This document shows, piece by piece, positions 29,671-49,904 of a stretch of DNA of 64,000 nucleotides. Positions within the stretch are counted from its first letter, which is position 1. Each line of letters opens with the position of its first letter. The notes beneath the pieces were generated by a model that saw only the letters and a list, made by a program, of their open reading frames with translations, was not told where the DNA came from and did not search any database. The position numbers and the translations under genes were made by a program. Origin of the DNA: Bacteroidales bacterium (GTDB taxonomy: Bacteria > Bacteroidota > Bacteroidia > Bacteroidales > JAQUTK01); NCBI GenBank assembly GCA_028709785.1, contig JAQUTK010000001.1, forward strand, positions 147,845 to 211,844, given 5' to 3'.

Positions 29671-29730
29671 CCCGATTGGGATTACTCTTTCTTTTTGGCA
29701 GCTGCCCCTTGCCGTCGGATATCCCCGTTC

Positions 29731-29753
29731 GTCATTGCGGGCTTGACCCGCAA
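29731..29753 (+). repeat. 23-nt hairpin repeat GTCATTGCGGGCTTGACCCGCAA, copy 1 (Bacteroidales REP-like element)
   Basis: Identical 23-mer to 45194-45216 in the same orientation. It has an internal inverted repeat TTGCGGG/CCCGCAA and produces the spurious ORF peptide VIAGLTR. Confidence 0.8.
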
Positions 29754-29789
29754 ACAATCCCCTCTTCCCATCAGAAGTAAGCAACTTGT

Positions 29790-29812
29790 ACCGGTTACAA
29801 TTTGTAACCGGT
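29790..29812. terminator. 23-bp perfect palindrome, probable bidirectional terminator between convergent deaminase and brxL
   Basis: ACCGGTTACAA T TTGTAACCGGT, followed on the + strand by TGATTCCCTTTTTTG. Confidence 0.55.
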
Positions 29813-29849
29813 TGATTCCCTTTTTTGTAACACTGCCCCCTTTTAGTAC

Positions 29850-31886
29850 TTATTCCAACCCCATGGATTTAAAAGCCGCATCAATCGGATCTGAATAAAT
29901 GACAAGACTGAACTTTGATATCAGATCAGTGGGCACTTTGCCCAGTTGTGAGATATCCACTGCCGGAATTAGTATTTTTTTTGCGCCACTATCAACAGCA
30001 ACCTGAAGATACTCACACAAATTGTCCGACCCAATGATAGCTCCACCGATACTCATTGAACCAAGAACGGCTAATTGAGGAAGTAACGGTCTTTCCGTAA
30101 TAGACGACACGATGGACAAGAATATAGAAAGTTCCAACCCTTTTAAGTTTCCAATACCATTCAGATCCGTCGCTTTTATGTGAAACTCAAAATCACTGAA
30201 TTTAGCACTTTGTGTCACTCGATTTAAATTAGAACGAACATAGTTGACCGCTTCCTTTACTTCTTCTTTAATCGCTGTACCTGCACCAAAGCCTGTATCA
30301 CTAAGTTTGCCATTGCCCGGCATCCTTTGAATGTCCATTCGAAACAATCCTTTTTGTCCATTGTCTGAGTTTTGCCCTATCGCATAAACGACCCCTGCAG
30401 GCAAGTCTCCTTCAGGAATTAATGCTTTGCCACCACTTTCGGGAACCCCTACAAAATGTTCCTCGTTGTCTTCCAAATCAATATAGCTGAAATGCACATC
30501 GTAAAACTCCATGCCACCTATTTTCTTCAACTGTTCTTTCACTCTTCTTCTTCCGACCAGCGCATATTCCAGGCAACGCCGGATATCTTCTTTGGTGTAG
30601 ATCCCATCCGGAAATAATAGCTTCACCAATCCGCTGACAGTTCGTTTTACAGCAATGGTGTCCCTTTGGTTGAGATCTTTCCCCAGACGAAAGTACTGAC
30701 CGATCGCATCAGAGAAGTTATACTTGCGAAGCACTCTTAAACACTCTGCATAATAATCAGAAATGAAGCCATACGAATCAGTAAAAAACTCAGGGCGCAT
30801 TTTAGGAATCTCCCACCCGGGCAGGTAATGATGAAAACGGTCAAAGAAAGCAGCATCAATCATCTCTTTTGGAAATGGAGACAAGAGATGACTCGTCTTG
30901 ACCAGATTCTCAATAGAACCATTGATATTACCCACAAAGACCATGGAAGCATCCGCGTTGATACTCTCTTTCCCACGGCTGAAAGAACCGTTTGCCATAA
31001 AACCTTTCATAATATGAATGCCATCCTTGTCTTTCATATTGATACCGGCTACTTCGTCAAACGCAACCACATCCCAGAGACCCACCAAACCAACCGTACG
31101 CCTACCCATATTATAAAACAGATTAGCCACAGTCGTTTGACCTCCCGAAATAAGAATCGAATTGGGCGATATCTCATCATACACATACGATTTACCGGTG
31201 CCCCGTGGACCCAACTCACACATGTTATAATTCTTCTCCACAAAAGGGATCATGCGTGCCATGAGATGCCATTTCGTTTTCTCATCCAGGTTGACAGGTT
31301 TCATGCCAACACTCCGTAGAGAAACATCAATCCATTCATCCAATGTAAAATCTTTGCGATGGATCAGATAATCGTCAAAATTAGTCTCAGGCATCTGAAT
31401 AGGTTTCAGTTCGACGATCTTAAAAGGAGTTTCCTTTGAACATTCATCATACAAATACTCCATTGTAACAATACACCAGATACCGCCTGCTAGCAGTTTC
31501 TCATATTTTTTGATATATGAATCAGCGATAACAACGTTTCTCAGATTCACATTGGATAGAAGCCCTTCGTACCGATCCAACTTCTCGTTGAGTGTCACCG
31601 ATATTTTATCAATGATCTTGTAATGCCCCTTTTCCTTTATCTTTGATTTTACTTTCTCCGATTCATCAGGCCTCACATAGTTCTCAGCAAGTATCTGTTT
31701 TACTTTCTGAACGCCTTCATTGATAGCCGTCTCGTCATCGGTCGCGCAATACATGCCTAAAAGATATTCCAATACATACACAGGCACATTGGCACCTTCT
31801 TTAATGTGCTTCGTTAGATCCTTTCTGACCACTTTGCCGGCAAAGGAATGATTGAGTTTACTATCGAGATTGTCCATATACATCAA
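29850..31886 (-). CDS. brxL: BREX type 1 Lon-like protease BrxL
   Basis: 678 aa. N-terminus DSKLNHSFAGKVVRKDLTKHIKEGANVPVYVLEYLLGMYCA is characteristic of BrxL. P-loop GPRGTGKS. C-terminal Lon-protease-like region. It is the terminal gene of the brx operon. Confidence 0.85.
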   Translation of the reverse strand: MMYMDNLDSKLNHSFAGKVVRKDLTKHIKEGANVPVYVLEYLLGMYCATDDETAINEGVQKVKQILAENYVRPDESEKVKSKIKEKGHYKIIDKISVTLNEKLDRYEGLLSNVNLRNVVIADSYIKKYEKLLAGGIWCIVTMEYLYDECSKETPFKIVELKPIQMPETNFDDYLIHRKDFTLDEWIDVSLRSVGMKPVNLDEKTKWHLMARMIPFVEKNYNMCELGPRGTGKSYVYDEISPNSILISGGQTTVANLFYNMGRRTVGLVGLWDVVAFDEVAGINMKDKDGIHIMKGFMANGSFSRGKESINADASMVFVGNINGSIENLVKTSHLLSPFPKEMIDAAFFDRFHHYLPGWEIPKMRPEFFTDSYGFISDYYAECLRVLRKYNFSDAIGQYFRLGKDLNQRDTIAVKRTVSGLVKLLFPDGIYTKEDIRRCLEYALVGRRRVKEQLKKIGGMEFYDVHFSYIDLEDNEEHFVGVPESGGKALIPEGDLPAGVVYAIGQNSDNGQKGLFRMDIQRMPGNGKLSDTGFGAGTAIKEEVKEAVNYVRSNLNRVTQSAKFSDFEFHIKATDLNGIGNLKGLELSIFLSIVSSITERPLLPQLAVLGSMSIGGAIIGSDNLCEYLQVAVDSGAKKILIPAVDISQLGKVPTDLISKFSLVIYSDPIDAAFKSMGLE

Positions 31887-31934
31887 ATAAGAATTAGTAC
31901 ATACAATTAAAATCAGAGAGAAGTAACCGTGTTG

Positions 31935-34445
31935 TCAAGAATCAAACTCACTACTAAAAGCGATCATCATGCGGAAGGTATAGCTTTTATAGGTTTTGTA
32001 TTGGTTTGTGCCTTCGATTTGTTCCTCCATTTTCAGATAAACATCCTGTCCGTTATGCTTTGACGCTTCCCCTTTTAAAAGAAAAGTCTGCCGTTTTTCC
32101 CTTGCTAAAGCATCGTTCTCTGAACTATTGAAGCTCAGTGTGACTACGTCCGAGATTAACTGATCAGCTTCGGTATAAAAAGCAGCTCTTAGTTGACGTG
32201 GAAGAACTTTGTCAGCGATGGGCTGTTTCTGATAAAAGCTCACCGCAAAACTATTAGAGGTTATGTTTGACGAACCACTGATAATATCAATGTCAACCTG
32301 TTCGATATTGCTTTTTCGAGCTTTGTTTACCTCCAATACCGGAACGACAATTTCCTGTAAGCTCGCTCCCCCATGCACAAAGCGGCTTCCAGCCCCCGAT
32401 ATTCTTATTCTGTTGATCGATTTAGGAATGAGCACCTCTGTGTCGTCATTCAAACCAACATCCGCACCCTTCCATTTCTTCACGGAGTCATTACCTTGCA
32501 GATTCTTACCAATCACAAAACGGCGGTTGCATTTATACACCTCACCCACAGGAGTGAAATCCGTAAAGTCGGTTTCATCCAAGCGATTTTGTTGATAGAT
32601 ATATCCATGGTCAGAGGTAATAATGATATTGTTACCGTTCATATTCGTGATATGTTTCAGGAGTCGAAGAAAATTATTCAATTCATCTTCAGTAGATTCA
32701 AACACCTTATTCTCAGAAGTCTTATCATCCCCGGTTTTGTCAATGACATTGCTGTAGATGTAGATCACATTATAGGGTTTGATAAAGTCACGCCCCTCCG
32801 TACTAGCTTTCATTTTGAGAAACTCTTCCGCTGTTATTGCTATACTTCCGGCATACTTCTTTTGCAAGATCTTCGTGCGGTTTGGCGTGCCTTGCGTGCT
32901 TACTCCATCCGCAAAGACAGTCTCCGTCTTGTCGTTGTAAGTCAATGCGCTTTGTGGAAGTAAAGAAGCCATTCCTAATTGCGTGTAGGAGGGTAGGCAG
33001 CCCAGCACAGGATGAAGGATTGCCGTATATTTATCTTCCTGCAAAATCAATTCACGTAATTCGGCCGCTGATTCGAAGCGGAAAGCATCCGATATGATAA
33101 CGAAGATACGTTTCTCACTTTTCACATAGGGTTCAATCCAATAGCTATAGAATTCGCTTTGGCTTCTCACATTGTCTATTTTCCAGGAGTTCATCTTATC
33201 GACAGCCTTTTGCCAGTTGTCGCCCAGTTTGAGCAAGAATGAGTTGCCATAGGCTTTTTCAATTTGAAGAGTCAGATCTTTGAGGATGTCGCCATGTTCG
33301 CCATGCAGACTTTTAACAATGTATTTTCGATACAAGCGGTCGATTGTATTCCACTGCTTTTCGTAATTCTCAAAGCCCGATTCCGGCGACTTGACCGTTA
33401 CGTCCACTTTGCGTATTTCATCCAACAAAAGTGAGGCATTACTCAATGCGCCATAGATATTCTCATAGCTATTGTAAAAGAACTTCACTTTCCGTTTATC
33501 GATCCATTCCTGAATGATACGATTGGCGAGCGTATTCTTTGTAATACTATCCCGAAGGCTGACAATGATTTTCTTATCAATGATAGAAAAAGCATCCGAT
33601 TCAATCAAGTTCTCCACATCTGTTTTCTGAACAGCACTTTCGATGTTTAGCTCCGACTCCAATACCCCGCTCCATTCTTTAAAAAGAGGACCGGCCTTGG
33701 AGTTTTCCTTCCACCGACTGATGAAGAGATACGCATCTTTATTTAAAAGCGGATTGCCACCGGGGATCGTCCGTTTAAAACTATCGTGTATGAGGTTAAC
33801 CAGAAGATCTTTAATGGTTGGTTTATCCGATTTATAGTTGTATTTCTTCTCAATGGTTTTCCAGAGGAAATCAGACAATTTGAACTTCTCTATCGCTTTG
33901 TATTTATCTTGTTTGCCCTTTAGTTTCTCCTCAAACAAAGCGTATAAGACCTTTTCCCATTCCGGTTCACAAGCACATATAGTGCAAAGCATTTTCAAAC
34001 GAATGATGCTTTCCCTGTCTGTTTTCTCCAATAATTCTTTCAGGGCTGAAACACGGTATTGATTTGCAAAGAACTCTTCATGCTTCTGGATCAACTCTTT
34101 ATACTCTTGCGGTAAGCCCAATTCCTGAAGATATAAAGACGAAGATTCTGTATGAAACTCGTAATTAGACACCAACAAATCCAACAGCCAGTTTTCATTA
34201 TCAGCAGGTTTTGCCGCAGGTTGATAAAGTAGAAACCGTTGTTTAGGCTGTTCGACTACTATTCTGTGTTTGAGCGTAAATTCATTGTTTTCTATTTTAA
34301 GCTTTTCAATACCGGAGATCTGAATATCCTCAAATAACCCCGTCATTTCGGCTTTATCATCGTACCAAAACACTAAGCGGTGCTGTTGGAAAATCTTTTC
34401 CAACGCAGACTGTACTTTCTCATTTATGGCAAATAGATTGGACAT
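31935..34445 (-). CDS. pglZ: BREX alkaline-phosphatase-superfamily protein PglZ
   Basis: 836 aa. N-terminal RLVFWYDDKAEM and the PglZ-domain metal site IIITSDHGY. Its position between pglX and brxL fits. Confidence 0.85.
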   Translation of the reverse strand: MSNLFAINEKVQSALEKIFQQHRLVFWYDDKAEMTGLFEDIQISGIEKLKIENNEFTLKHRIVVEQPKQRFLLYQPAAKPADNENWLLDLLVSNYEFHTESSSLYLQELGLPQEYKELIQKHEEFFANQYRVSALKELLEKTDRESIIRLKMLCTICACEPEWEKVLYALFEEKLKGKQDKYKAIEKFKLSDFLWKTIEKKYNYKSDKPTIKDLLVNLIHDSFKRTIPGGNPLLNKDAYLFISRWKENSKAGPLFKEWSGVLESELNIESAVQKTDVENLIESDAFSIIDKKIIVSLRDSITKNTLANRIIQEWIDKRKVKFFYNSYENIYGALSNASLLLDEIRKVDVTVKSPESGFENYEKQWNTIDRLYRKYIVKSLHGEHGDILKDLTLQIEKAYGNSFLLKLGDNWQKAVDKMNSWKIDNVRSQSEFYSYWIEPYVKSEKRIFVIISDAFRFESAAELRELILQEDKYTAILHPVLGCLPSYTQLGMASLLPQSALTYNDKTETVFADGVSTQGTPNRTKILQKKYAGSIAITAEEFLKMKASTEGRDFIKPYNVIYIYSNVIDKTGDDKTSENKVFESTEDELNNFLRLLKHITNMNGNNIIITSDHGYIYQQNRLDETDFTDFTPVGEVYKCNRRFVIGKNLQGNDSVKKWKGADVGLNDDTEVLIPKSINRIRISGAGSRFVHGGASLQEIVVPVLEVNKARKSNIEQVDIDIISGSSNITSNSFAVSFYQKQPIADKVLPRQLRAAFYTEADQLISDVVTLSFNSSENDALAREKRQTFLLKGEASKHNGQDVYLKMEEQIEGTNQYKTYKSYTFRMMIAFSSEFDS

Positions 34446-34556: not shown

Positions 34557-34557
34557 A

Positions 34558-37500
34558 TCATTCATCTTCCTCTTTTTCCAATCCTTTGATGGGTACCAAT
34601 ACCTCTTTCAGCTTTTGATAGTTTACTTTTACGCCATCATCCAGATCGATGCTGATCTTTTGGGTGGCAAGGGTGAAGAGGGTACGTTCATAGACTTTAC
34701 AGTCGTCAATCATCTTTCGCAGGTTGTCTATTTCTTTACTTGCAGCCACTTTCTCGCGTGGCGAGAGGTCTTCACGAACACTCAGCATGATTTGTGTTTG
34801 TCTGGCACTTTCAATTTTGCTGATGTAAGGCTGTAAGTAATCATTGAGCAACTTACTGCACGTATCGGGTTGATAGCGGTGCATATAGATCAATGCTTTG
34901 AAATGACCCTTCGGACTGCTAAACATCCAATAGATCGGACGTTTTTTGTATCGCTTGATGTGGTCGTTGTAAAAATCCTTTACAAAGTACCGGCGAATGT
35001 CTTTTGCCGCGATGTTATCTTCGATGAAACCAATGTTTTCGTTGAGCTGATCGGCACTAAAAGCCACTTTCATGAATTCACGGAAGCGACCGACGATATC
35101 ATCGGTAAACCATTCGCCATCGAGTACCGGAATAATATTATCCTCATCCGGCTGATAGGTTGGAGCTTGAACCTCCTTTAGATAATCTTGCACCGTATCG
35201 CCTTGATTGGCTAAGATAAGCCCGGGTTTATCGAGACTGTAGCGACCAAACATACAACCCACGGCATAGCTGATAAGTTGCAACATGACCGGTGCGGCTT
35301 GTATTTCCAACTGACCGTCCACAATCTTGCCTTCTTCTTGCAAAATAGTGATTTCTTCCAACGGCACATCGGGAGTCAATTCGTCCTGCAAACCATAGAT
35401 TTCGATAAACTGACGATTGAGTTCTTCTTCATTGTGGTGCAGTTGGTAAAACTTATCTGACCATTCTTTTTTATAGCTTTCAAAGGCTTTTTTTATGGAT
35501 TCGGCTTGTTGTTTGATTAGTTCGTTTTGTTGGAAGTCCCAAGAGGTTTCGCGAGAATCCCAATCTTGTTTTGATATTAATATATTTTGGTCAACATTTG
35601 GAGCCATTCCCATTTCTTCAATATCAGAGAACAGAGGCAATTTTCTAATATCCTCTGGCATTATATTAATTGTTGGATTCATCAGACTTAAAAATCCATC
35701 AACAACTTTTGTATTTAGATAACCTAATAGATTCTTTAAATCTTGTGTAGCGTGTTTCTTATAAATGTCATTTGTTGAACTTTCATAAATAAATCCCTTC
35801 TGGGAATATCGAAATGCAGATTTGCTACTTGATATTCTCGACATTTCGATACCTTCGCAAAAAGAGAACTCTACCCCCCCTAAACGTGCTTTAATACGTC
35901 CTTTTTCATCTAATGAAGTTTTAATTTGTTCGCCATTATTTTCCCAAAAAACAACGAACTCATTATTGCCATACCATCTTCTAAATAACCCTCCTTTATT
36001 GCAAGGCTTCCAATTATTATTAATAAAAGGAACTTCATGCCACAGTCTTAAGTATCTCACATTATCCCCTGTTGATATTCCATTGCGTACAATGTAAAAA
36101 TCAGAAATTTTAGTAGATTCAAATGATTCAAAACTTTTTTTGCTCAACCAATACCCAATTGGACTACCCGGAATCTTCTCGAAATCATTTTGATTAGCCG
36201 TATAAAACCAACCGCAATCAGGGTTTTGAATGGCTTCTAAGGTTTTATCATCTTTCAGTTGGGCATTGCCAAAGTCGGTTAAACGAATATAAACCCCTTT
36301 GTTTATGGGTTTGTAGTTGCCCAATACAAAAGCGGCATTCTGGACCACTTCGCCACCAATCTCTGGGAAAGCACGTGGCCCTAAATGCAACATACTTTCT
36401 ATTTGTGTATGCTCAATAAGGAAAGAACGAAGCCCTTCATAACTGCTCAAAAACATCCAACTATGTTGGTTAATCATCGCTGTTTTGCCTTGGATAGGAT
36501 TATATGCAAGGCATCGTTCCATGAAACAAGCCATTAAGTCACTTTTGCTTTTCCTGAAATTCTTTTCAACAAAGCACTTCAACTCTGCATTCATTCCACT
36601 ACTACCCATATACGGCGGATTAGTGACCACACAATGATACTTTGAACATAGGAATTCTGCTTGTCGTTTCAATATATTTTGCTGCTCCTGCCACATACTG
36701 CCTGTTTGTACCTGTATGGCATTTACTTCTTCTTGATTGATCTGAATCAAAGACCCTAAGTTGTTGGCTTGCGTCAATAGATATAGACTTAAGTCTTTGT
36801 AATCCTCTATTTTCTTACTCTTTACAACAATTGGCAAGGTTATCGATTGTTCCAGGATCTCCTCGCTTACATTTACCAATGCAATGACATGTGGCTGTAT
36901 GGGTTTACGCAGAAAACGGCTGTAATAATTGCGTGCTTTCATAGTTAAGGCAAAAGCCGCCAACTGTGCCGCACGTGGGTCAATGTCAATGCCAAAAAGA
37001 TTGTGCTGAAAAATGAGTGACGGAATTTCGTTGGTGTTGTATCCTTCTTCTTCGTAGATTTTCGCAAACAAGTCGAAAGCATATACCAACACGTGTCCGC
37101 TGCCCTGACAAGGATCCAGAAACGTTATATCGGTAATACCTTTTATCCCTTCGGGCAGAGGTGACGGAACATTGCCTTCCGGAGTTTCAATATAATAAGG
37201 CATGTGGTCACGTAATTTACTATTGGGCTTGAATGTGAGCCACAGTTTCCCCAAGGTGTTTTCCACCATATACCGCACTATCCAACGTGGTGTAAATAGC
37301 TGTGTGGCAGCCGGTATGTTTTCGGCAGAAATCTTTACATTCTTGCCCAATGCTTTAAAGACCTGATCTTTTTTGTCCGAGATATAAAACTGATATAACC
37401 ACCCGAGTATTTCTTCCTGTTGGCAATCCTCGTCCGTCATCCCGTTGCGAATATCGGCTACAATACTGTAATCGCTCAGGAGGTCATCGGGCAGGAGCAG

Positions 37501-42900: not shown

Positions 42901-43498
42901 GGCCTTTTTCCCAACTCTTATGGAAGCGCCTTTGAAACTCAGCTTTGAAATAATCATATTGATGAATGCTTTCCAGATGCCTCTCTATCTCTGCAATCTC
43001 CGGATTGATCGGGTCGTAGCCCAGCATCTCATTAAAGACTTTCAGAAAGATGTTTAATACAGGGTCGATCGTTGATGACATTCCCGTAATGCCATCCGCT
43101 TTCGCTGCAATATTAAACAAGATTGATTTAGTGGGTATCTTGGCGACACGTCTGATATTTCCTTCCAATTCAAAATCCTCTTTCGCTTTTTGCGCGAAAA
43201 TGTCGGCACATCTCAGGCCGTTGATCTCTTTATTTTCAAGGACCAAAGAGAGCATTTTGAGTAAGTGCGACTTACCCGATCCGAAATATCCCGATATCCA
43301 GACGCTACTGTTGAAACTGCTTTTGGATAAATCCTCAAACAATCCCGGTAGCATTTTATCCCGATTAGAAATGCCGCACAATTCATTTGTCAGCACATAT
43401 TCTTCTAACTCTGACAATAAATGCCTGTCATCGTTGGCTTTGATAACCCCCTCAATGGGGCGGTTAATATCTTTCAGATAAAGTTCCTTTTGGTTCAT
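39950..43498 (-). CDS. brxC: BREX P-loop ATPase BrxC (PglY-like)
   Basis: 1182 aa. N-terminus LKDINRPIEGVIKANDD, Walker A GYFGSGKSHLLK, Walker B-like VFCVDEVGQF. Size and position after brxB fit. Confidence 0.85.
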   Translation of the reverse strand: MNQKELYLKDINRPIEGVIKANDDRHLLSELEEYVLTNELCGISNRDKMLPGLFEDLSKSSFNSSVWISGYFGSGKSHLLKMLSLVLENKEINGLRCADIFAQKAKEDFELEGNIRRVAKIPTKSILFNIAAKADGITGMSSTIDPVLNIFLKVFNEMLGYDPINPEIAEIERHLESIHQYDYFKAEFQRRFHKSWEKGRESIFLNQHELAEIYAEIKSISTEDANRYIDNVINNYKLDIEGFSDLVTHYIQAQQPGFRLVFCVDEVGQFIAENVKLMLSLQTIAETLATKTQGQSFLIVTSQNDLGATIGELGAKQAHDFSRIQGRFAVKIPLTSANADEVIQKRLLLKNEESAKFLANSYNKEQNTIKTILKFNDESRQYQVYRDADHFVNTYPFLPYQFDLFQAAIKSLSDHNAFIGSQQSVGERSMLGVFQQVAKVYSEKDVTEIVSFAHMYEGIKDVLQSNIQSDILQSERSIDSDLAKEALKALFLVKYVKGFHASAGNLAILLLPHFDIDLAAFHKKVKEALNLLESQTYIQRTATDRYEYLTNQEKDVENEIKSTEIAPNAPSELLVTILFDEIIRDGKVKLDTNNQAYEFGKKLDDNLLGREKDFYLNFITPFNANSITSSNIHMFSVGRPNDLIVFLPEDSRLFDELKLIKKTEKYIQLTNSPSIDSAKRQIIQDKATQNAVRKVAILAQLKESLTDAAMFINGSELTDMGSKDPKTKITLGLQQLIKTIYTNLKMLTTDYSEALLVKLMQSQDDVLFKDDLQEVEIEILNRIKRNKANHERTTIKVLLDTFNARPYGWYQTAVLCVIAKLYKRNKISLKQDSNTLSDRNVLEALQRNNQYSTTIIELEEEIPVTSIQKLKNFYQEYFNEPNLGNEPKEIARLFKQRLEKEITDLSEMYHLRSRFTFLESLGEPINRLKSLAEKEPLYFFTALNQYQDPLLDDKEEILDATKKFMNGAQRTIFEKVLSYLESNNANFDYIGSDSLTALRAVAASKAPYKGVLMQEAKTALDTIQLEVTERQRVERVSAKESITETINKLKLFADFAKLSEKQQADILAPFEKATKEIELERFIGNIRSKANNTNNEVYQRQLEKMISLANPPLPSPRPANDMTGTLTNVQPPMPKITFVRKDSVKINFKKPSLETKQDVEEYLAALREQYFRIIDENKRISL

Positions 43499-43499
43499 A

Positions 43500-44111
43500 T
43501 CAGATTTTATATTCGTTCAGGTTATGCGCTCTGTAATAGTTATTATCAATAATCCGGTCGAAAAGATTCAATGAAATGTTGTTGTAAGTACCTGGAAAGA
43601 ACATTACGAGGGGAATGTCGCCTACCAGCGTTTGAAGGTTGTTTAATATCGTATGCGAACGGACAAACGGAAATGCAGCACCGATACCTGTCAGCAAAAG
43701 GATCTTCGCGTTTGAGTCAGCCAATCGTCTATGGATTTCCGGAATGATAGCCGTGTCAATATGAAGCGGACCACTGAGGATTCTCAAAAGACGTTGCTTA
43801 TTCGTCCATGACTGCTCTTGTGCTACAATCTTGTCAAAGATCTCTTCCCGTTTGAGAATGTCCATACATAACAGATACAGGTTCACTTCCAGAATTTCTA
43901 TACCTTCGCTTTGCAGTCTTTTCAGTAAAGACTCCGTACCAGTTTCCACTTCCGATTGTTTATTTACCGGAAAGGAGTGAATAAAAAAAGGTAATTCACC
44001 GCCTAAGCCTTCTTTTTTAAGGAAACGAGGGCTTGAGAGAATCTTATACAGATTGTTGAACTGCTCGGGCGTGTTGTATTTCAGACTAGTTGACATCTTT
44101 TGATTTTTCAA
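43500..44111 (-). CDS. brxB: BREX protein BrxB (DUF1788 family)
   Basis: 203 aa. Its stop is 1 nt from the brxC start. Size and position match BrxB, and the FPGxY-type C-terminal motif (MFFPGTYN) is as I recall for DUF1788. Confidence 0.7.
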   Translation of the reverse strand: MKNQKMSTSLKYNTPEQFNNLYKILSSPRFLKKEGLGGELPFFIHSFPVNKQSEVETGTESLLKRLQSEGIEILEVNLYLLCMDILKREEIFDKIVAQEQSWTNKQRLLRILSGPLHIDTAIIPEIHRRLADSNAKILLLTGIGAAFPFVRSHTILNNLQTLVGDIPLVMFFPGTYNNISLNLFDRIIDNNYYRAHNLNEYKI

Positions 44112-44727
44112 GGATTGCTTTTACTTCTTGATTGGAACAAAGGAATGCTGCAAGGTAAGCAGGGTCATCTTCAAGGATTACTTGTGCTGCCCGGTTGCTT
44201 AAACTGGGCTTCACGAGAAAGCCGCATTTGGCAGATGAAAGAAGGTCAACCTGTTCTAAGATCTTAAAGACGACCTGTTTGACTTTTTTACCGGTAAGTT
44301 CGGTTATCTTTTCGATTTCGGGGTGTTGGAAGCTTTTAGAATCAACGAATCGTTTATAGTCACTGTCTAAGAGCATCCTATCAAAGATCAAATACTTGTT
44401 GAGCAATATCTCTACAATAAATTCATAGATAAAAGGATAAGTTTTGACGATGGAGAGTAAAATCATCCACTTTGTCTCCTCATAGCTGCCTTCAACCATT
44501 AATTGAAGTTGGTCGGGTGTGAGTAAAGCAATCCTTTTCCTGATCTCGGAAAATTCTCTTTTGAAAGTGACTTGTTTGACTTTGTTCAAGTGGTTGTTAT
44601 CAAACAAATCAGCCTGTACTGATTTCCAGTCTTTTAGATTGTAATAGGCTTCAGCTATCGTCCGTGTCTCAGTAATCAACGCGGATGCTCCGGTAAAGGA
44701 AAAGGAATATTTAGTTGTGTTTACCAC
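44086..44727 (-). CDS. brxA: BREX protein BrxA (DUF1819 family)
   Basis: 213 aa with a GTG start. First gene of the operon, overlapping brxB by 26 nt. The N-terminal YSFSFTGASALITETRTIAEAY resembles BrxA. Confidence 0.7.
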   Translation of the reverse strand: MVNTTKYSFSFTGASALITETRTIAEAYYNLKDWKSVQADLFDNNHLNKVKQVTFKREFSEIRKRIALLTPDQLQLMVEGSYEETKWMILLSIVKTYPFIYEFIVEILLNKYLIFDRMLLDSDYKRFVDSKSFQHPEIEKITELTGKKVKQVVFKILEQVDLLSSAKCGFLVKPSLSNRAAQVILEDDPAYLAAFLCSNQEVKAILEKSKDVN

Positions 44728-44809: not shown

Positions 44810-45193
44810 GAAAAAAATGTGAATAAATGGAACTAGAGAACTTGCTTAAAAGGCTATTTTATTTTCATTGTATTTTACTTTTTCGTGAAACCCTGAGGCG
44901 ATTGATGTAAAAACTGTATCAAAAAGGGGCAATAGCAATTTTTTTTGTAAGCAATATATGAGCGAGCAAGTAAAATCATAACAGACCAAAGTGCCCTACA
45001 GTATACTGAGGGTCATGGCTTGGTGGAGTTAGTGCATTAAAATCAAGGTATCCCGCCATTCTGAAAGTAAAAAATAAAAAAAAAATTACCACGGAAAATC
45101 AATCTAAAATAGCTGATCCTTAACTATTTGACCTAATAAACCCCTGTTTTTTTACGATTACAGCCCCATTTCATTATAAGCGACCCTCATCCC

Positions 45194-45216
45194 GTCATTG
45201 CGGGCTTGACCCGCAA
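45194..45216 (+). repeat. 23-nt hairpin repeat GTCATTGCGGGCTTGACCCGCAA, copy 2
   Basis: Identical to 29731-29753 in the same orientation. The flanks are partly similar (CCCGT.. upstream, ..TCCCCTCTT / TCTCCTCTT downstream). Confidence 0.8.
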
Positions 45217-45363
45217 TCTCCTCTTATAAAAACCATGAGCTATAATCGTTTATCACTATGTCGTTTGTTGCCTAAGAACCAACCCGAAACAAAAGTTCAA
45301 AGATCAGGGAAGCAAATTAATCCAAACCAGAAGATAAAGTCAAGCAATAAGGACGCAAAAGTT

Positions 45364-45435
45364 ATATCAAGCCCTGATACAATCGTATCAAAGCCTGATA
45401 CAATTATTTCAGGCACTGATATGATTATTTCAGGC
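45364..45435 (+). promoter_or_regulatory. phased direct repeats upstream of the HU-like gene (candidate operator/iteron-like array)
   Basis: The CTGATA core recurs at 45374, 45395 and 45416, an exact 21-bp period. TATCAA(G/A)(C)CCTGATACAAT occurs twice (45364, 45386) and ATTATTTCAGGC occurs twice (45403, 45424). Confidence 0.5.
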
Positions 45436-45506
45436 TTTGAAATAGGAAATATGTCCGGAAATGAGTATCTTTACATCCTAACAAAGAAAACATTTATTCC
45501 TACAAG

Positions 45507-46139
45507 ATGGCAAAATATATCAAACAAGAAATGCCCGACTTTCAAGGCACAGGTGAAACCAAGTGCTTTTATCGGCTACAGACCAGTGGTACTCTTAGTC
45601 CCAAAGAGCTAATAACCCGTATTGCTCAACCCGGTTCGGGATTGAGTGAAGGTACAGTGGCACATGTGCTTCAATCACTGAAAGATGAAATGGCAAAAGC
45701 AATGGCAGACGGCTATAGTGTTTCGGTCGATGGTCTCGGTATATTCAAGGCATCAATAAGTGTCCGTGAAGACAAGGAGATGGATACCATCAACGGCGAT
45801 GAACCAAAACATAATGCCACCAGTTTGCAAGTGACCGGTATCAATTATAGAGCAAACAAAGCATTGATCAGTAAAACTGATTCACATTGCCGTTTGGTAC
45901 GTGGTGGAGTGCGCGAACTTTGCCGTTCGTCTTATACGAAAGAAGAGCGACTACAGTTGGCACTCGATTTTCTGAATGATCCTGCTCATCCGTTCATGCG
46001 ATTGGATGATTATGTGGCACTGACAGGATTGTCTAAACCGGCGGCTTCCAGAGAACTTATTGAGTTTAGAGCGAATACGGAGACTGGCATTACTACGATA
46101 GGTCGAGCTACAAGTAAAGTGTATACAAAAAGAGGGTAA
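45507..46139 (+). CDS. Bacteroidales HU-like DNA-binding protein with C-terminal extension (HU-HIG type)
   Basis: 210 aa. MAKYIKQEM...TKCFYRLQTSGTLSPKELITRIAQPGSGLSEGTVAHVLQSLKDEMAKAMADGYSVSVDGLGIFKASI matches the histone-like HU fold family common near mobile or accessory DNA in Bacteroides. A possible winged-helix tail follows. Confidence 0.65.
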   Translation: MAKYIKQEMPDFQGTGETKCFYRLQTSGTLSPKELITRIAQPGSGLSEGTVAHVLQSLKDEMAKAMADGYSVSVDGLGIFKASISVREDKEMDTINGDEPKHNATSLQVTGINYRANKALISKTDSHCRLVRGGVRELCRSSYTKEERLQLALDFLNDPAHPFMRLDDYVALTGLSKPAASRELIEFRANTETGITTIGRATSKVYTKRG

Positions 46140-46149
46140 AAGGTAAAGG

Positions 46150-46554
46150 GGCAATACTTGATAATTATTAATTAGAGTTATGCGGCAATAGCGGCAAACT
46201 TGATAAGTTCTTTGGCTTACATTGTAGTATCGGTTGAGAAATAGAGTTTTCTTAGAGAAAAAGGCATCAGCGACAATGTATTGAATAACAGGATGAATAT
46301 TCTCTTTGATTCCATCGAGTGCAAACAGATACCCGTCCTTCAAAGTCCCTGGCAAAGACCTGCCGTAAACGTTGCTCAATGGAGTCCGAATACCGGCCCA
46401 TTTGAAGAATATTTATTTTTCTTGGTATAACCCTATATAGTAACAGTGACTCTATGATGAATGATTTGAAACTTTTGTTTAATTTCGCTGTGAACTCATC
46501 TACGACATTGTTGCAGACACTTCTATGTTGGTTAAGTATACTTGATCTTCTCAT
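46150..46554 (-). pseudogene. possible frameshifted and truncated DDE-transposase (IS) remnant
   Basis: Two overlapping minus-strand frames lack a full-length ORF. One reads ...GRSLPGTLKDGYLFALDGIKENIHPVIQYIVADAFFSKK, where the VADAFFSKK-type motif resembles IS4/IS701-like transposases as I recall them. No inverted repeats were identified. Confidence 0.3.
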
Positions 46555-46713
46555 AGTAATTTATCGTCTCGATAACCATGAAGTTGATGAAATTCAGTTA
46601 ATTAACCAGTTTTTTATATTAAACTGTCTTCTCTGAATCATTGATTAATAATAACTTAACTGAATATTTACCGAACTGTAGGATAACAAAGCAAAAAGAT
46701 ACAAATAACCGGA

Positions 46714-47580
46714 ATGATGGAAAAACTAAAAATAAGCCAATATAAAACGACATTCGACTCCATTGCCCATTACATCGAGAACGAACATAAAGAACAGGTC
46801 GAAATTTGGTTTGCAAGAGAATTGCAGACAATCTTAGGCTATGCACGTTGGGAAAACTTTGTTGTAGCCATAAACCGTGCTGTCGAATCGTGCAAAACGC
46901 AGGGTGTCAATGTGGATGATCATTTTCGTGAGGTCACGAAAATGATCGAGATAGGGAAAGGTGGTAAGCGTGAAGTAGAAGATTACATGCTTACTCGTTT
47001 TGCTTGCTACTTGATAGCTCAAAATGGCGACCCTAAAAAAGAAGAAATTGCCTTTGCTCAGAGCTATTTTGCCATTCAAACCCGAAAAATTGAACTTATT
47101 GAAGAACGTATAAACCTGAAATCCCGAATGGAAACCCGCGATAAGTTGCGGGCTGCCGAAAAACAACTCTCACAAAATATTTACGAAAGAGGCGTTGACG
47201 ATAGAGGTTTTGGACGTATCCGTTCGAAAGGCGACACCGCTTTGTTTGGCGGATACACCACCGAGTATATGAAACACCGACTCGGCGTTAAATCTACCCG
47301 TCCGCTTGCCGACTTTTTGCCAACGCTTACCATAGCCGCAAAGAACTTGGCAACCGAAATGACCAACTACAATGTGAACGAAAAAGACTTGCAGGGCGAG
47401 TCGTCCATAACCACCGAGCATGTACAAAACAATATAACCGTGCGCGAAATGTTAGGCAAACGAGGTATAAAACCCGAAGAATTGCCACCTGCTGAAGATA
47501 TTAAAAAGATGGAACGCCGTGTAGCAACCGACGAAAAGAAATTAGAACAATCAACCAAGAAGCTCCCAAAAAATGAATAA
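46714..47580 (+). CDS. dinD: DNA damage-inducible protein D homolog
   Basis: 288 aa. It is colinear with E. coli DinD as I recall it (W.AREL...LGY..W.NF...I.RA..SC...G....DHF.E...M..IG.G.KR...D..L.R.ACYL.AQNGDP.K..IA.AQ.YFAIQTR). It is commonly embedded in Bacteroides type I R-M loci. Confidence 0.75.
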   Translation: MMEKLKISQYKTTFDSIAHYIENEHKEQVEIWFARELQTILGYARWENFVVAINRAVESCKTQGVNVDDHFREVTKMIEIGKGGKREVEDYMLTRFACYLIAQNGDPKKEEIAFAQSYFAIQTRKIELIEERINLKSRMETRDKLRAAEKQLSQNIYERGVDDRGFGRIRSKGDTALFGGYTTEYMKHRLGVKSTRPLADFLPTLTIAAKNLATEMTNYNVNEKDLQGESSITTEHVQNNITVREMLGKRGIKPEELPPAEDIKKMERRVATDEKKLEQSTKKLPKNE

Positions 47581-47701
47581 AATAGAAGAACTCATTAAAC
47601 AGCTTTGTCCAGACGGGGTGGAATGTAAGGAAATGGGAGAGGTAGCCCATTCTAATTTAAAATACTTTTATCGGACAGCAATACTTCTAATCCTAATTTG
47701 A
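47573..47701 (+). pseudogene. hsdS: type I restriction-modification specificity subunit (hsdS) N-terminal stub, 42 codons
   Basis: The ATG overlaps the dinD stop. MNKIEELIKQLCPDGVECKEMGEVA is the conserved HsdS N-terminus. Similarity ends at about 47650, and the frame stops at TGA 47699-47701, directly abutting the helicase ATG. Confidence 0.6.
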
Positions 47702-49792
47702 ATGAATATTGAAAATCTGAATCCCAGTCAACGGAAAGCTGTTGAATATAATGGAAAACATTTACTTGTGCTTGCAGGAGCAGGTACTGGAAAAACTCAT
47801 ACTATTATAAGTCGTGCAGCTTATCTGATTGCAAATGGAGTCCAAGGTAAAAGGATTCAAATACTATCATTTACACGAAAATCAGCAAGTGAAATTGTAG
47901 AGCGTGTAAACTCGATGTTTCGTGAAAGTAAAGATGCAAAGCAGTTGAATGGGTCTACTTTTCACGCATGGTGTATGAATATAATAAAAACTAATCCAAA
48001 GGTTTTTAAGGTAAGTGATTACACTGTCATTGACAGAGATGACCAATTAGGGGTATTTAAACTTATATGTGGCAGAAATCCAAAGGTTATTGATGAAACA
48101 AGATTAAACGCAAAGACACTATTGGATTTATACTCTTTTGCAAGAAATACTCGCAAGAATATTACAGAAACAGTTAGATTTAAATGCTTGAACAATTCAA
48201 AAGATGGTAAAGCAGATAAGGAAATCGAGAAAATAAAGCCTTATCTGGTTTCTGTCTTTTCAACCTATGAATCAAAAAAAAGAGAAAGGAAATACCTTGA
48301 TTATGATGATATTTTAAATGTGGTTGCAATTGGATTAAAAAACAATAAGGAAGCTAGGGATTATATTACATCTCAATATGACCATATATTAGTAGATGAA
48401 ATGCAGGACACCAACCCTCTGCAGTGGGAACTTCTAAGCTCCTTTCAGGAAAAGTGTTGCTTATTTTGTGTAGGTGACGATGCTCAATCGATATATGCAT
48501 TTAGAGGTGCTGATTTTACAAACGTTCATAAATTTAACGAAAGGGTTCCTGATTCAGAAATATATCGTTTGGAAGACAATTATCGTTCAACTCAAGAGAT
48601 ACTAGATTTATCAAATTGGCTTCTAAAACAATCCCCATTATGTTACAATAAGAAACTTAATGCAACAAGAGGATCAGGTGAATTGCCTGTTATAATGAAT
48701 TTTGAAAATGAATGGAGAGAAGCAGATTGGGTAGCTTGCGATATATTAGATAATTTCACAAAGGATGGATTAGAATATAATAATCATCTTGTTTTAGTTA
48801 GGTCTGTCTATGCTGGTAGGTCAATTGAACGTTCTTTATTAGAGAAAAAGATTCCTTATGTTGTATTTGGTGGTGTAGGACTTATGGCATCTGCCCACAT
48901 TAGGGATGTTGCATCTGCACTGAGAATTATAGCAAACATTTATGATGAGATTGCTTGGATGAGATATTTACAATTGTGGGAAAAAATTGGAGATGTAACA
49001 GCCTCAAATTTAATAACAGAGCTTTTAGAATTATCTGACATTGATGAATGTCTCGTATTATTGAAAAAGAAAAATTTAAAAGACCAAGGTTTAGTAGATA
49101 CGTTATCTGCAATAAAAGGACTTAATAATAAACCCTCAGATGCCATACGCATAGCATTAGCCATTATGGAATCTCGGTTAGCTATTAATTATAAAGGCGA
49201 ATGGGAAAAGAAGAGAAAACCAGATTTTCAAGTACTAATGCAGCTAGCAGAAAAGCATGGTTCGATTAGCGAGTTTATTGCCGAATATGTATTAGATCCA
49301 CAATTGAATGAGGCTAGTGCTTTCGGTTCAGACTCAAAAGAGGCAGTTACAATTTCTACTATTCATTCGGCAAAAGGGCTGGAAGCTAAGGTGTGTTATG
49401 TCATAAACGTTTCCGTTGGCGCATATCCAAGCACAAGGTCGATAGATGAAGGAGAAGATGCAGTCGAAGAAGAACGTCGTGTGCTTTATGTAGCACTAAC
49501 TAGAGCAAAAGATGAATTGTACGTGACTAGAATTATTACTAAAATTCAGGATTATAGTCAATCAAGAATTCAACAAATAAATTCAGAATGTGAAGGTGTT
49601 TATTCATCTCAAATTATAGAACAACAAGATGATACAGATTCAGAAAAAAAATCAACTGTATATTTCTTAGATGAATTACCATCTGAATTAGTCATTGATA
49701 AAATATCTGAACAAACTAGATTTGAGATTTCAACAAAAACATATACTGGAAAACCTATTGCAGAAAATGATTTTGGAATGGACTTAAGCTAA
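47702..49792 (+). CDS. UvrD/Rep/PcrA-family superfamily-1 helicase, low-GC cassette
   Basis: 696 aa with intact SF1 motifs: Q-region LNPSQRKAV, I AGAGTGKT, II VDEMQDTNPLQ, III VGDDAQSIYAFRGA, IV EDNYRSTQEIL, V TIHSAKGLE, VI YVALTRAKDELYV. A ~95-aa acidic C-terminal tail of unknown function follows. GC is 21/60 in sample 48001-48060. Confidence 0.8.
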   Translation: MNIENLNPSQRKAVEYNGKHLLVLAGAGTGKTHTIISRAAYLIANGVQGKRIQILSFTRKSASEIVERVNSMFRESKDAKQLNGSTFHAWCMNIIKTNPKVFKVSDYTVIDRDDQLGVFKLICGRNPKVIDETRLNAKTLLDLYSFARNTRKNITETVRFKCLNNSKDGKADKEIEKIKPYLVSVFSTYESKKRERKYLDYDDILNVVAIGLKNNKEARDYITSQYDHILVDEMQDTNPLQWELLSSFQEKCCLFCVGDDAQSIYAFRGADFTNVHKFNERVPDSEIYRLEDNYRSTQEILDLSNWLLKQSPLCYNKKLNATRGSGELPVIMNFENEWREADWVACDILDNFTKDGLEYNNHLVLVRSVYAGRSIERSLLEKKIPYVVFGGVGLMASAHIRDVASALRIIANIYDEIAWMRYLQLWEKIGDVTASNLITELLELSDIDECLVLLKKKNLKDQGLVDTLSAIKGLNNKPSDAIRIALAIMESRLAINYKGEWEKKRKPDFQVLMQLAEKHGSISEFIAEYVLDPQLNEASAFGSDSKEAVTISTIHSAKGLEAKVCYVINVSVGAYPSTRSIDEGEDAVEEERRVLYVALTRAKDELYVTRIITKIQDYSQSRIQQINSECEGVYSSQIIEQQDDTDSEKKSTVYFLDELPSELVIDKISEQTRFEISTKTYTGKPIAENDFGMDLS

Positions 49793-49904
49793 AGTGTAAA
49801 TTCTAATTGGTATGTCAAAAGAGGGTAACCTCTCTTTTCATCCCACATTACATCTGTTCCCGCTCATTTATCCCAAAATAACCCGTACATCTCCGCATTT
49901 TATT

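What the first reader, a model, noticed from the sequence alone, without database searches (positions are those of the whole stretch)
29671..49900. A ~20-kb integrase-less, compositionally mosaic defence island between a core deaminase gene and tamB
Everything left of 29670 and right of 49957 is housekeeping. The interval contains a full BREX-1 operon with a nested ATPase/HNH pair, an HU-like gene, an IS-like remnant, dinD, an hsdS stub and a UvrD-like helicase. Hand-counted 60-nt GC samples swing widely: 36/60 (37561-37620, pglX 5' part), 32/60 (40441-40500, brxC), 16-17/60 (35641-35760, pglX centre), 17/60 (38161-38220, HNH), 21/60 (48001-48060, helicase), 26/60 (46921-46980, dinD). This implies several independent acquisitions stacked at one locus, a defence-island hotspot. 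No integrase, recombinase, tRNA-derived att site or intact transposase is visible, so the insertion mechanism is unclear.
Basis: partly seen in the sequence, partly recalled or inferred. Interest (0 to 1): 0.65.

Follow-up and report, generated by a model that had tools for sequence, protein, structure and literature searches.

The report
BREX–Septu defence island at a hotspot
This stretch of an uncultured gut-type Bacteroidales genome is a real but ordinary anti-phage defence island, a complete BREX system with a Septu system nested inside it plus decayed neighbours, at a chromosomal site where close relatives carry different cargo or none.

Summary
Positions 29.7-49.9 kb carry an intact type 1 BREX operon (brxA-B-C, pglX, pglZ, brxL). 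A Septu pair (ptuA/ptuB) is nested between brxC and pglX. Next come an HU-HIG gene, a transposase relic, dinD, an hsdS stub, a 45-bp IS end and a lone UvrD-family helicase. There is no recombinase or tRNA.

Relatives show the region is accessory. A strain 96% identical in the flank joins the amidohydrolase directly to the HU-HIG upstream region, so 15.3 kb of BREX+Septu is missing. Another species keeps only a brxL pseudogene scar plus an IS and other cargo. The DNA upstream of tamB differs in every relative.

At gene scale only Septu, the PglX specificity segment and the helicase are atypical; the BREX backbone is host-like.

The "island" is two variable segments either side of a conserved, multi-copy HU-HIG module. 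The 24-bp repeat bracketing BREX is a dispersed REP-like hairpin, not an att site.

The turnover I observed is by deletion and IS activity. Flank-guided homologous recombination is an inference. All of this is a new example of known kinds: defence hotspots and systems embedded in BREX.

The parts
28399..29670 (+). Left anchor: amidohydrolase of the MTA/SAH-deaminase type. Homology with all relatives ends at 29658, three codons before the stop.
   Evidence: Pfam Amidohydro_1; NCBIfam TRZ/ATZ and deaminase models, all below cutoff; blastn of L001, L002, L003, L028 and L038 all ends at 29658.
29730..29753 (+). Copy 1 of the 24-bp hairpin repeat CGTCATTGCGGGCTTGACCCGCAA (REP-like). A palindromic terminator-like hairpin follows at 29790-29812, between the convergent amidohydrolase and brxL genes.
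   Evidence: Exact repeat with 45193-45216; none in 100 shuffles. Absent after the amidohydrolase in L001. Eight exact hits in unrelated IMG/VR contigs.
29850..31877 (-). brxL (Lon-like BREX protein, 675 aa, Walker A GPRGTGKS)
   Evidence: Pfam BrxL_N, BrxL_ATPase, Lon_C; motif check; exact protein MDD4821060.
31935..34445 (-). pglZ (836 aa)
   Evidence: Pfam PglZ, E 2e-57.
34558..37989 (-). pglX methyltransferase (1143 aa, NPPY at residue 457). Residues 601-800 (window 35590-36189) form a hypervariable, low-GC specificity segment.
   Evidence: PADLOC PglX, 1347 bits; Pfam Eco57I and MmeI_Mtase; 18-36% identity over most of aa 601-800 (up to 58% in the first 50 residues) against 80-96% over most of the rest, except against B. 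luti; GC3 0.25 there.
38003..38632 (-). ptuB (Septu HNH nuclease, 209 aa). It overlaps ptuA by 17 nt and ends 13 nt before pglX.
   Evidence: PADLOC PtuB, E 3e-66, full length; NCBIfam PtuB, below cutoff; GC 0.324, GC3 0.263.
38616..39899 (-). ptuA (Septu ABC ATPase, 427 aa, Walker A GDNSSGKT), starting 50 nt after brxC.
   Evidence: PADLOC PtuA, E 2e-164, full length; Pfam AAA_15 and AAA_21; 90-94% nt identity to the ptuA embedded in the otherwise 72-84% identical BREX of L042.
39950..43498 (-). brxC (1182 aa P-loop protein)
   Evidence: Pfam BREX_BrxC domains.
43500..44096 (-). brxB (198 aa)
   Evidence: Pfam BrxB; exact protein in NCBI.
44086..44727 (-). brxA (213 aa), first gene of the operon
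   Evidence: Pfam BrxA.
44921..46160 (+). Conserved HU-HIG module. It holds a conserved non-coding block (44921-45090), REP hairpin copy 2 (45193-45216), 21-nt operator-like repeats (45365-45440) and the HU-HIG gene (45507-46139).
   Evidence: Pfam HU-HIG. Present at this locus in L038, L001 and L003. Paralogous copies of 82-86% nt identity occur at unlinked sites (L039-L041), one of them in the same population's MAG.
46267..46554 (-). Relic of a transposase N-terminus (IS-like remnant)
   Evidence: tblastn gives 36-43% identity to five annotated Bacteroidales plasmid transposases. No Pfam or NCBIfam hit.
46714..47580 (+). dinD (DNA-damage-inducible protein D family, Bro-N domain; PADLOC candidate PDC-S13)
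   Evidence: NCBIfam NF008573, 365 bits, above cutoff; PADLOC PDC-S13, E 4e-117, and the N-terminal part of a 717-aa type I specificity-subunit model.
47573..47644 (+). hsdS N-terminal stub (24 codons)
   Evidence: tblastn hits on the N-termini of annotated S subunits, weak; directly abuts the IS end.
47645..47689 (-). 45-bp relic of the left end of an IS4-family (DUF4372 + DDE_Tnp_1) element, including its ATG GGC start
   Evidence: 91% identity to L003 12537-12581, immediately upstream of and into the transposase ORF.
47702..49792 (+). Solitary UvrD/PcrA-family SF1 helicase (696 aa, motifs intact). It is GajB-like but has no GajA partner, and it is the most compositionally foreign gene in the interval.
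   Evidence: Pfam UvrD-helicase and UvrD_C; PADLOC GajB, E 9e-73; far below the PcrA, Rep and UvrD equivalog cutoffs; GC 0.336, GC3 0.22, tetranucleotide z 5.1.
49876..54516 (+). Right anchor: tamB promoter region and tamB (49939-54516). Homology with relatives resumes at 49847-49876.
   Evidence: Pfam TamB; blastn of L043, L017, L018 and L019.

Best explanation
The interval is an accessory anti-phage defence island at a chromosomal variable site of an uncultured Bacteroidales species. It has no mobility genes of its own. It consists of two variable segments separated by a conserved, multi-copy HU-HIG gene module.

Segment A (29659-44920) is an intact type 1 BREX operon on the minus strand. 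PglX methylates a host motif set by its swappable specificity segment, and BrxA/B/C, PglZ and BrxL exclude unmethylated phage DNA. A co-oriented, tightly packed Septu pair (PtuA ABC ATPase plus PtuB HNH nuclease) sits in the brxC-pglX gap and is presumably co-transcribed as a second defence layer.

Segment B (46161-49875) is a decayed stack: a transposase relic, dinD and an hsdS stub (the remains of a type I R-M locus), an IS end, and a lone foreign UvrD-family helicase.

Observed: presence/absence, the gene scars, and identity levels that differ module by module. Inferred: cargo enters from related BREX cassettes that ride mobile elements in other Bacteroidales. It is then gained, swapped or lost by homologous recombination in conserved flanks (the amidohydrolase, tamB, the HU-HIG module, and within the operon the conserved brxC 3' end and pglX 5' end), together with illegitimate deletions and IS activity. 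No dedicated integrase is involved.
For: Identity and completeness of BREX-1 and Septu.

Accessory status: the BREX-less allele L038 (96.4% nt flank identity) joins 29658 to 44921. L001 also lacks BREX. L003 retains a 317-bp brxL pseudogene fused to the brxA-upstream region, plus an IS and other cargo. The tamB-proximal cargo differs in L043 and in L018/L019.

Reproducible left junction: a second MAG assembly is 99.93% identical over 28728-34544.

The embedding slot is variable. B. luti has a 245-aa gene in the brxC-pglX gap, L024 has Septu plus that gene, and L042 has Septu. All three fill the pglX-pglZ gap, which is empty here, with GmrSD and other genes. Nucleotide homology with B. luti stops exactly at the brxC stop codon and resumes 13 nt before the pglX start.

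Modular histories: ptuA is 90-94% identical to L042, ptuB 59-63% and brxA-C 72-84%. PglX residues 601-800 are replaced relative to all homologues but one.

Mobile-element vehicle elsewhere: the L042 BREX lies next to HTH_17 and DUF3987/BT4734-like genes.

Recombination signature: mismatches to L038 are patchy. There are none in 28242-28961, then 3.9% up to the junction and 7.7% beyond it.

Deletion and IS traces. No recombinase or tRNA.
Against: No occupied and empty pair shares clean recombination end-points, so the homologous-recombination route is inferred from patchy divergence only. Divergence is patchy along the whole flank, not just near the junction.

The L038 junction lies inside the last three amidohydrolase codons. 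It recreates a C-terminus (KKG*) like that of the L002 species, which I cannot fully explain. It could mean that L038 is the ancestral empty state and the cargo inserted precisely.

An amidohydrolase-tamB linkage is seen only on this contig. L038 and L043 come from one metagenome but cannot be linked to each other.

Defence activity of the helicase and of dinD is not established; a 44%-identical helicase is solitary in a core-like context in A. baumannii.

No expression, methylation or phage-challenge data exist.
Confidence: 0.8

Rival explanations
1. Segment A is the decayed remnant of an integrative mobile element (IME/ICE-type). It inserted site-specifically into the 3' end of the amidohydrolase gene, carrying a replacement gene end, and later lost its integrase and transfer genes.
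For: Closely related BREX+Septu cassettes lie beside HTH_17 (excisionase-like) and DUF3987/BT4734-like genes in L042. The empty allele L038 differs from the window exactly within the last three codons of the amidohydrolase, and it ends in KKG* like the L002 species, as expected if an element supplied a new gene end. Window, L001 and L003 share homologous sequences at both insert ends.
Against: No integrase, excisionase, relaxase or primase relic occurs anywhere in 29.7-49.9 kb. There is no direct repeat of the gene's 3' end at the far junction. The only flanking repeat is a dispersed REP-like hairpin that is absent from the L001 left junction. The L003 brxL relic diverges about as much as the flanks (87% against 85%), which suggests long residence rather than recent integration.
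Confidence: 0.12
2. The 24-bp hairpin repeats are recombination sites of a cassette system, so BREX+Septu is a cassette inserted or excised between them.
For: A perfect 24-bp direct repeat brackets the operon, and it occurs only twice in 64 kb. L003 has three copies, all in the same orientation, at module borders.
Against: The BREX-less alleles are not the product of repeat-to-repeat recombination. L038 and L001 keep about 270 bp of sequence to the left of the right-hand copy, and L001 has no copy after the amidohydrolase. The same 23-mer occurs in eight unrelated viral contigs, often next to degenerate tandem or inverted copies, which is typical of REP elements.
Confidence: 0.04
3. The region is not an island at all: it is either conserved core gene content or a mis-assembly or binning chimera of a MAG.
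For: The BREX backbone has a host-like tetranucleotide signature. The window comes from a MAG, and HU-HIG modules are dispersed repeats that could mislead assemblers.
Against: Relatives clearly lack or replace the content. An independent MAG assembly reproduces the amidohydrolase-brxL-pglZ junction at 99.93% identity. The HU-HIG paralogues are only 82-86% identical, too divergent to collapse in assembly.
Confidence: 0.03

Closest known systems
Type 1 BREX (brxA-brxB-brxC-pglX-pglZ-brxL; Goldfarb et al. 2015 classification, from my own knowledge)
   Same: All six genes are present in canonical order on one strand. They are full length relative to homologues and their catalytic motifs are intact.
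   Different: There is no BrxR-type regulator. A Septu pair is inserted between brxC and pglX. The PglX specificity segment is shared only with Bacteroides luti among the homologues examined.
Defence systems embedded within BREX, DISARM, type I R-M and Hma (Payne et al. 2024, bioRxiv 10.1101/2024.01.29.577857); BrxU in pEFER BREX, cited there
   Same: The foreign defence genes are co-oriented and lie inside the operon. That paper reports frequent embedding in BREX, with 96.7% of embedded genes in the same orientation, and Septu commonly embedded in Hma.
   Different: Here the embedded system is Septu in the brxC-pglX slot. The paper's main text describes Septu in Hma; I did not find a statement specifically about Septu in BREX. 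In relatives the slot holds other genes or an extra gene.
Septu (PtuA/PtuB)
   Same: ABC ATPase plus HNH nuclease, with overlapping genes and full-length PADLOC matches.
   Different: It is below the NCBIfam equivalog cutoffs, which were trained on the retron Ec78 PtuAB. ptuA and ptuB have different evolutionary histories.
Integrase-free 'core defence hotspots' flanked by conserved core genes (P. aeruginosa cDHS, PMC10250203; E. coli hotspots, PMC10121019; titles and abstracts seen)
   Same: Variable defence cargo sits between conserved chromosomal marker genes, with no mobility genes, and the content differs between close relatives.
   Different: The lineage (uncultured Bacteroidales) and the anchors (amidohydrolase, tamB) differ. 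Only a handful of comparators exist. The site is split by a conserved HU-HIG gene. One related species shows a synteny break instead.
HU-HIG clade of Bacteroidetes HU proteins (Burroughs et al. 2017, PMC5499826)
   Same: It is a multi-copy, fast-diverging family with no conserved operon partners, sometimes found as adjacent duplicates, and proposed to act in biological conflicts. Here there are dispersed 82-86% identical copies and a duplicated fragment in L003.
   Different: In this case a copy sits between two variable defence segments and carries a conserved upstream block. No function was tested.
Gabija (GajA/GajB)
   Same: The helicase matches GajB profiles over its full length.
   Different: No GajA/OLD-type nuclease is present, so this is not a Gabija system.

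Membership tests
BREX type 1 | All six genes brxA, brxB, brxC, pglX, pglZ and brxL present, co-oriented, in that order | tested here: met
   Pfam and PADLOC hits for each gene, 44727 down to 29850 on the minus strand.
BREX type 1 | PglX is an N6-adenine methyltransferase with the NPPY catalytic motif; P-loops in BrxC and BrxL | tested here: met
   NPPY at residue 457; GYFGSGKS in BrxC; GPRGTGKS in BrxL.
BREX type 1 | Host motif methylation and phage exclusion | not testable with these tools
   Needs methylome and phage-challenge experiments.
Septu | Adjacent ABC/AAA_15-type ATPase (PtuA) and HNH nuclease (PtuB) | tested here: met
   PADLOC PtuA E 1.7e-164 (1-417 of 427 aa) and PtuB E 3.3e-66 (4-208 of 212 aa). 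The genes overlap by 17 nt, and the Walker A, CxxC and His residues are present.
Septu | Reaches the NCBIfam equivalog score for PtuA and PtuB (retron Ec78 type) | tested here: not met
   180 bits against a cutoff of 500, and 87 against 150. These models describe the retron-associated subtype, so this argues against that subtype, not against Septu in general.
Embedded defence system (Payne et al. 2024) | Genes of one system lie between the genes of another, in the same orientation, and homologues also occur outside that context or the slot is variable | tested here: met
   Septu lies between brxC and pglX with 50-nt and 13-nt gaps. The slot holds other content in B. luti, L024 and L042.
Gabija | GajA (OLD-family ATPase/TOPRIM nuclease) next to the GajB helicase | tested here: not met
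   Only the helicase is present. Upstream lie an IS end and the hsdS stub; downstream is tamB.
Type I restriction-modification | hsdR, hsdM and a full hsdS | tested here: not met
   Only a 24-codon hsdS N-terminus follows dinD. No N6_Mtase, HsdR or Methylase_S hit occurs in the interval.
Integrase-borne genomic island / ICE / IME | Tyrosine or serine recombinase and flanking att direct repeats, often at a tRNA or tmRNA | tested here: not met
   No recombinase domains. No tRNA in the interval; the tmRNA at 24.1-24.5 kb is not adjacent. The only flanking repeat is a REP-like hairpin.
Chromosomal defence hotspot | Conserved flanking genes with different cargo, or none, in related genomes | tested here: met
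   Left anchor with at least four cargo states (window, L038/L001, L003, L002 type). Right anchor with three states (window, L043, L018/L019).
Chromosomal defence hotspot | Both anchors shown flanking the variable region on the same contig in several genomes | tested here: inconclusive
   This is seen only in the window. Comparator contigs are short, or tamB lies beyond the 10 kb fetched (L003).

The most novel reading that the evidence does not exclude
The conserved HU-HIG module may be more than a bystander. It comprises the gene, a non-coding block that is more conserved than the gene, palindromic 21-nt operator-like repeats and a REP hairpin. It could be a portable homology-and-regulation unit. 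Its dispersed copies would seed integrase-free exchange of defence cassettes between chromosomal sites and genomes in Bacteroidales, and its HU-wHTH protein might sense or regulate the neighbouring systems.
Probability: 0.07. Interest if true: 0.6.

Novelty: new member of a known kind. Interest (0 to 1): 0.28.

Why it matters
The window gives a clean, sequence-level example of how anti-phage defence turns over in an uncultured Bacteroidales lineage without any dedicated mobility gene. Changes are visible at three nested scales:
- a whole operon present or absent between strains about 96% identical in the flank;
- a variable slot inside BREX that takes different embedded systems;
- sub-gene swaps, namely the PglX specificity segment and ptuA versus ptuB.

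It adds a Bacteroidales case to the literature on defence hotspots and on embedded systems. It also marks a site (amidohydrolase/HU-HIG/tamB) where unknown cargo genes in relatives could be mined as defence candidates. It does not reveal a new mechanism or a new system.

Tried and rejected
1. The 24-bp direct repeat as an att site or target-site duplication. Rejected: the empty alleles are not repeat-to-repeat products, L001 lacks the left copy, and the 23-mer is dispersed in unrelated viral contigs.

2. A relic of an HU gene 3' end at 49809-49828 as evidence for HU-to-HU recombination. Rejected: equally good matches occur by chance elsewhere in the window, and L043 has no such relic.

3. A structured RNA in the conserved block upstream of HU-HIG. 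No Rfam hit. RNAalifold gives a weak fold with a penalising covariation term.

4. The 60-nt GC swings as evidence of mosaicism. Rejected as a test: the flanks have the same variance.

5. The 125-aa ORF at 45235-45612 and the 218-aa ORF at 27532-28188 as genes. Not supported. The first has no family hit above noise and, by my own reading of the L003 copy in the alignment, is interrupted by a stop codon there. The second has no family hit, and relatives call ZapA and a 97-aa gene on the other strand.

6. An exact-protein look-up of the amidohydrolase ORF found nothing. Relatives were reached through cluster members instead.

7. blastn of the IS-like region against plasmids found nothing; only the protein-level search worked.

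8. The tmRNA at 24.1 kb as an integration site. Its neighbour is a metallophosphoesterase, not an integrase.

9. The helicase as part of Gabija. No GajA is present. The closest annotated homologue, in A. baumannii, is solitary in a core-like context.

10. The metagenome scan with TamB returned only three short relatives, so no empty amidohydrolase|tamB junction could be sought further.

Full report
**What is there**

On the minus strand, from 44727 down to 29850, the genes are brxA, brxB, brxC, ptuA, ptuB, pglX, pglZ and brxL. All are full length compared with homologues. PglX has NPPY, and BrxC, BrxL and PtuA have P-loops. The Septu pair is tightly packed: 50 nt after brxC, a 17-nt ptuA/ptuB overlap, and 13 nt before pglX.

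To the right lie:
- an HU-HIG gene (45507-46139);
- a minus-strand ORF (46267-46554) that matches only annotated Bacteroidales plasmid transposases at protein level;
- dinD, an NCBIfam equivalog hit above cutoff;
- a 24-codon hsdS-like stub;
- a 45-bp relic of the left end of an IS4-family element, recognised because the intact element sits in relative L003;
- a UvrD-family helicase that matches GajB profiles but scores far below the PcrA, Rep and UvrD equivalog cutoffs.

No tRNA, recombinase or intact transposase is present. The flanks are non-mobile genes. The source is an NCBI MAG labelled Bacteroidales bacterium, on a 253.9-kb contig.

**Composition**

However, 60-nt windows vary just as much in the flanks (SD 4.39) as in the interval (SD 4.43), so those swings carry no information.

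At gene scale the BREX backbone is host-like. GC is 0.39-0.43, and the tetranucleotide distance to the flanks has z from -0.9 to +0.8 against same-length core segments. Three patches are atypical:
- Septu: GC 0.36, ptuB GC3 0.26, z 2.5;
- PglX residues 601-800: GC 0.32-0.34, GC3 0.25, against GC3 0.54-0.65 in the first 200 residues;
- the helicase: GC 0.34, GC3 0.22, z 5.1.

The low-GC PglX patch is the hypervariable specificity segment. Over most of it identity is 18-36% to every homologue examined except Bacteroides luti (82-94%), whereas most of the rest of the protein is 80-96% identical.

**Is it accessory?**

A species-representative genome scan with the amidohydrolase found three relatives with 93-94% protein identity. 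Cluster members gave more.

L038 is 96.4% identical to the window over 7.4 kb of left flank. It runs from the amidohydrolase (window 29658) straight into window 44921, the region upstream of HU-HIG. So 15,262 bp holding BREX+Septu is absent.

L001, a different species, also has amidohydrolase, about 290 bp, then the HU-HIG module.

L003 has an IS4-family transposase, unknown genes, and a 317-bp degenerate brxL 3' fragment fused to the brxA-upstream region. That fragment is a deletion scar of a BREX operon that once lay at the same place in the same orientation. Then come HU-HIG, an ABC-2 transporter pair, a second hairpin plus an HU fragment, and a KAP/PifA-like NTPase.

A fourth species (L002 and L028-L037) has katG, GH97, GH38 and GH92 directly after the amidohydrolase. 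The same point is therefore also a synteny break.

On the other side, a TamB N-terminal scan and a cluster look-up show that homology resumes at 49876 in L043. L043 comes from the same metagenome as L038, and its tamB is 94.4% identical. In a more distant relative (L018/L019) homology resumes at 49847. Upstream of tamB these contigs carry an unrelated ORF, or DUF2971 plus an HsdM fragment, instead of the helicase.

A second MAG from the same population reproduces the amidohydrolase-brxL-pglZ junction at 99.93% identity. This argues against mis-assembly.

**Structure of the island**

The HU-HIG module (about 44921-46160) is retained at the locus in L038, L001 and L003. The "20-kb island" is therefore two variable segments, 29659-44920 and 46161-49875, either side of it.

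The module is itself a dispersed repeat. Copies of 82-86% nt identity sit at unlinked sites: next to rpsO, next to a TIR/TPR pair with IS elements, and on another contig of the same population's MAG. This fits the published description of HU-HIG as a fast-diverging, multi-copy Bacteroidetes family with no fixed neighbours, suspected of a role in conflicts.

**The flanking repeat**

A perfect 24-bp hairpin repeat (29730-29753 and 45193-45216) brackets the operon and is unique to those two places in the 64 kb. It is not an att site, for three reasons:
- the BREX-less alleles keep about 270 bp to the left of the right-hand copy;
- L001 has no copy after the amidohydrolase, where L003 has a roughly 115-bp insert containing it;
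- the 23-mer occurs exactly in eight unrelated viral contigs, often beside degenerate tandem or inverted copies.

It behaves like a REP-type element.

**History of the BREX cassette**

The nearest PglX homologues place related cassettes elsewhere in other genomes:
- In B. luti (88% PglX identity) BREX lies between putA and pfl. The brxC-pglX gap holds a 245-aa gene, and the pglX-pglZ gap holds GmrSD and a Schlafen/AlbA gene.
- In L024 the first gap holds Septu plus the 245-aa gene.
- In L042 it holds Septu, and the operon lies next to HTH_17 and DUF3987/BT4734-like mobile-element genes.

In the window the second gap is empty (112 nt). Nucleotide homology with B. luti ends exactly at the brxC stop codon and resumes 13 nt before the pglX start.

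Against L042, identity is 72-84% in brxA-C, 90-94% in ptuA, 59-63% in ptuB and about 80% in the pglX 5' part. The specificity segment shows almost no nucleotide homology; one 96-nt match survives.

So the modules have separate histories, even within the Septu pair. This is the real basis for "several independent acquisitions".

**Mechanism**

Observed:
- an indel between strains about 96% identical in the flank;
- a deletion scar in L003;
- two IS relics;
- cassette boundaries that coincide with gene boundaries inside the operon.

Inferred: gain, swap and loss occur through homologous recombination in conserved flanks, plus illegitimate deletion and IS activity. Mismatches between the window and L038 are patchy. 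There are none for 720 bp (28242-28961), then 3.9% up to the junction and 7.7% after it. This fits an imported tract spanning the indel, but the whole flank is mosaic, so it is suggestive only.

One detail remains unexplained. The L038 junction falls in the last three amidohydrolase codons and yields a KKG* end like that of the L002 species. This leaves room for a precise insertion event in the past, which is rival 1.

**Comparison with what is known**

Type 1 BREX and Septu are established systems. Defence genes embedded inside BREX, in the same orientation, are documented, and Septu embedding is described for Hma. Integrase-free hotspots between core genes are described in Pseudomonas and E. 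coli. The window is a new example of these kinds in an uncultured Bacteroidales lineage.

Gabija membership fails because there is no GajA. Type I R-M membership fails because only a stub is present. Integrase-borne island membership fails because there is no recombinase or att site.

**Verdict**

The finding is ordinary for the field, and its interest is low to moderate.

Noticed in passing
window 44921-45090 (also L038 7387-7560, L003 ~15800-15990, L001 ~3711-3900, L041 ~8022-8200): A non-coding block of about 170 nt upstream of HU-HIG is better conserved across species than the HU gene itself, and it is also conserved at an unlinked HU-HIG copy. It has no Rfam hit and only weak predicted structure. 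Its function is unknown.
   Followed up: partly
window 45365-45440: About four tandem 21-nt units with internal dyad symmetry lie 70-140 nt upstream of the HU-HIG start codon, and they are conserved in L001 and L003. They look like operator sites, perhaps for the protein's own wHTH domain.
   Followed up: no
window 38616-39899 versus 38003-38632; L042 10001-11900: Within the Septu pair, ptuA is 90-94% nt identical to the L042 copy while the overlapping ptuB is only about 60% identical. This implies a recombination breakpoint at the ptuA/ptuB boundary and partner swapping.
   Followed up: partly
L022 9252-9989, L024 9253-9990, L026 6163-6900, L027 4649-5386: A conserved 245-aa gene with no Pfam family recurs immediately upstream of pglX in related BREX operons. 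It is absent from the window. It is a candidate BREX accessory or embedded defence gene.
   Followed up: no
window 1479-10623: Three tandem paralogous genes encode CotH-domain proteins with T9SS C-terminal sorting signals (64-72% nt identity to one another). They are slightly lower in GC than the right flank, so "housekeeping" is a loose label for them.
   Followed up: partly
window 24099-24495 (minus strand): A tmRNA gene lies 5 kb left of the island. No integrase or island sits at its 3' end; its neighbour is a metallophosphoesterase.
   Followed up: yes
window 29646-29670, L038 7380-7400, L002 ~2610-2640: The C-terminus of the amidohydrolase differs by allele: KQLQ* in the window, KRQ* in L001 and L003, and KKG* in both the BREX-less L038 and the L002 species. 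The KKG* codons of L038 align with the left edge of the HU-HIG module in the other genomes. I could not settle whether this reflects an ancestral empty site or coincidence.
   Followed up: partly
P0278 contig (JGI 3300059473, 6885 bp; no DNA available): A helicase that clusters with the window's at 90% or more identity is followed, on the same strand, by genes of 417, 312 and 151 aa with no Pfam hits. The lone helicase here may be the survivor of a larger, uncharacterised system.
   Followed up: no
L041 5813-7450: An unlinked HU-HIG copy in a related genome lies next to a ThsB-type TIR gene and a TPR-S gene, with IS256-like and IS66 elements nearby. This is another HU-HIG copy adjacent to defence-like cargo.
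   Followed up: no
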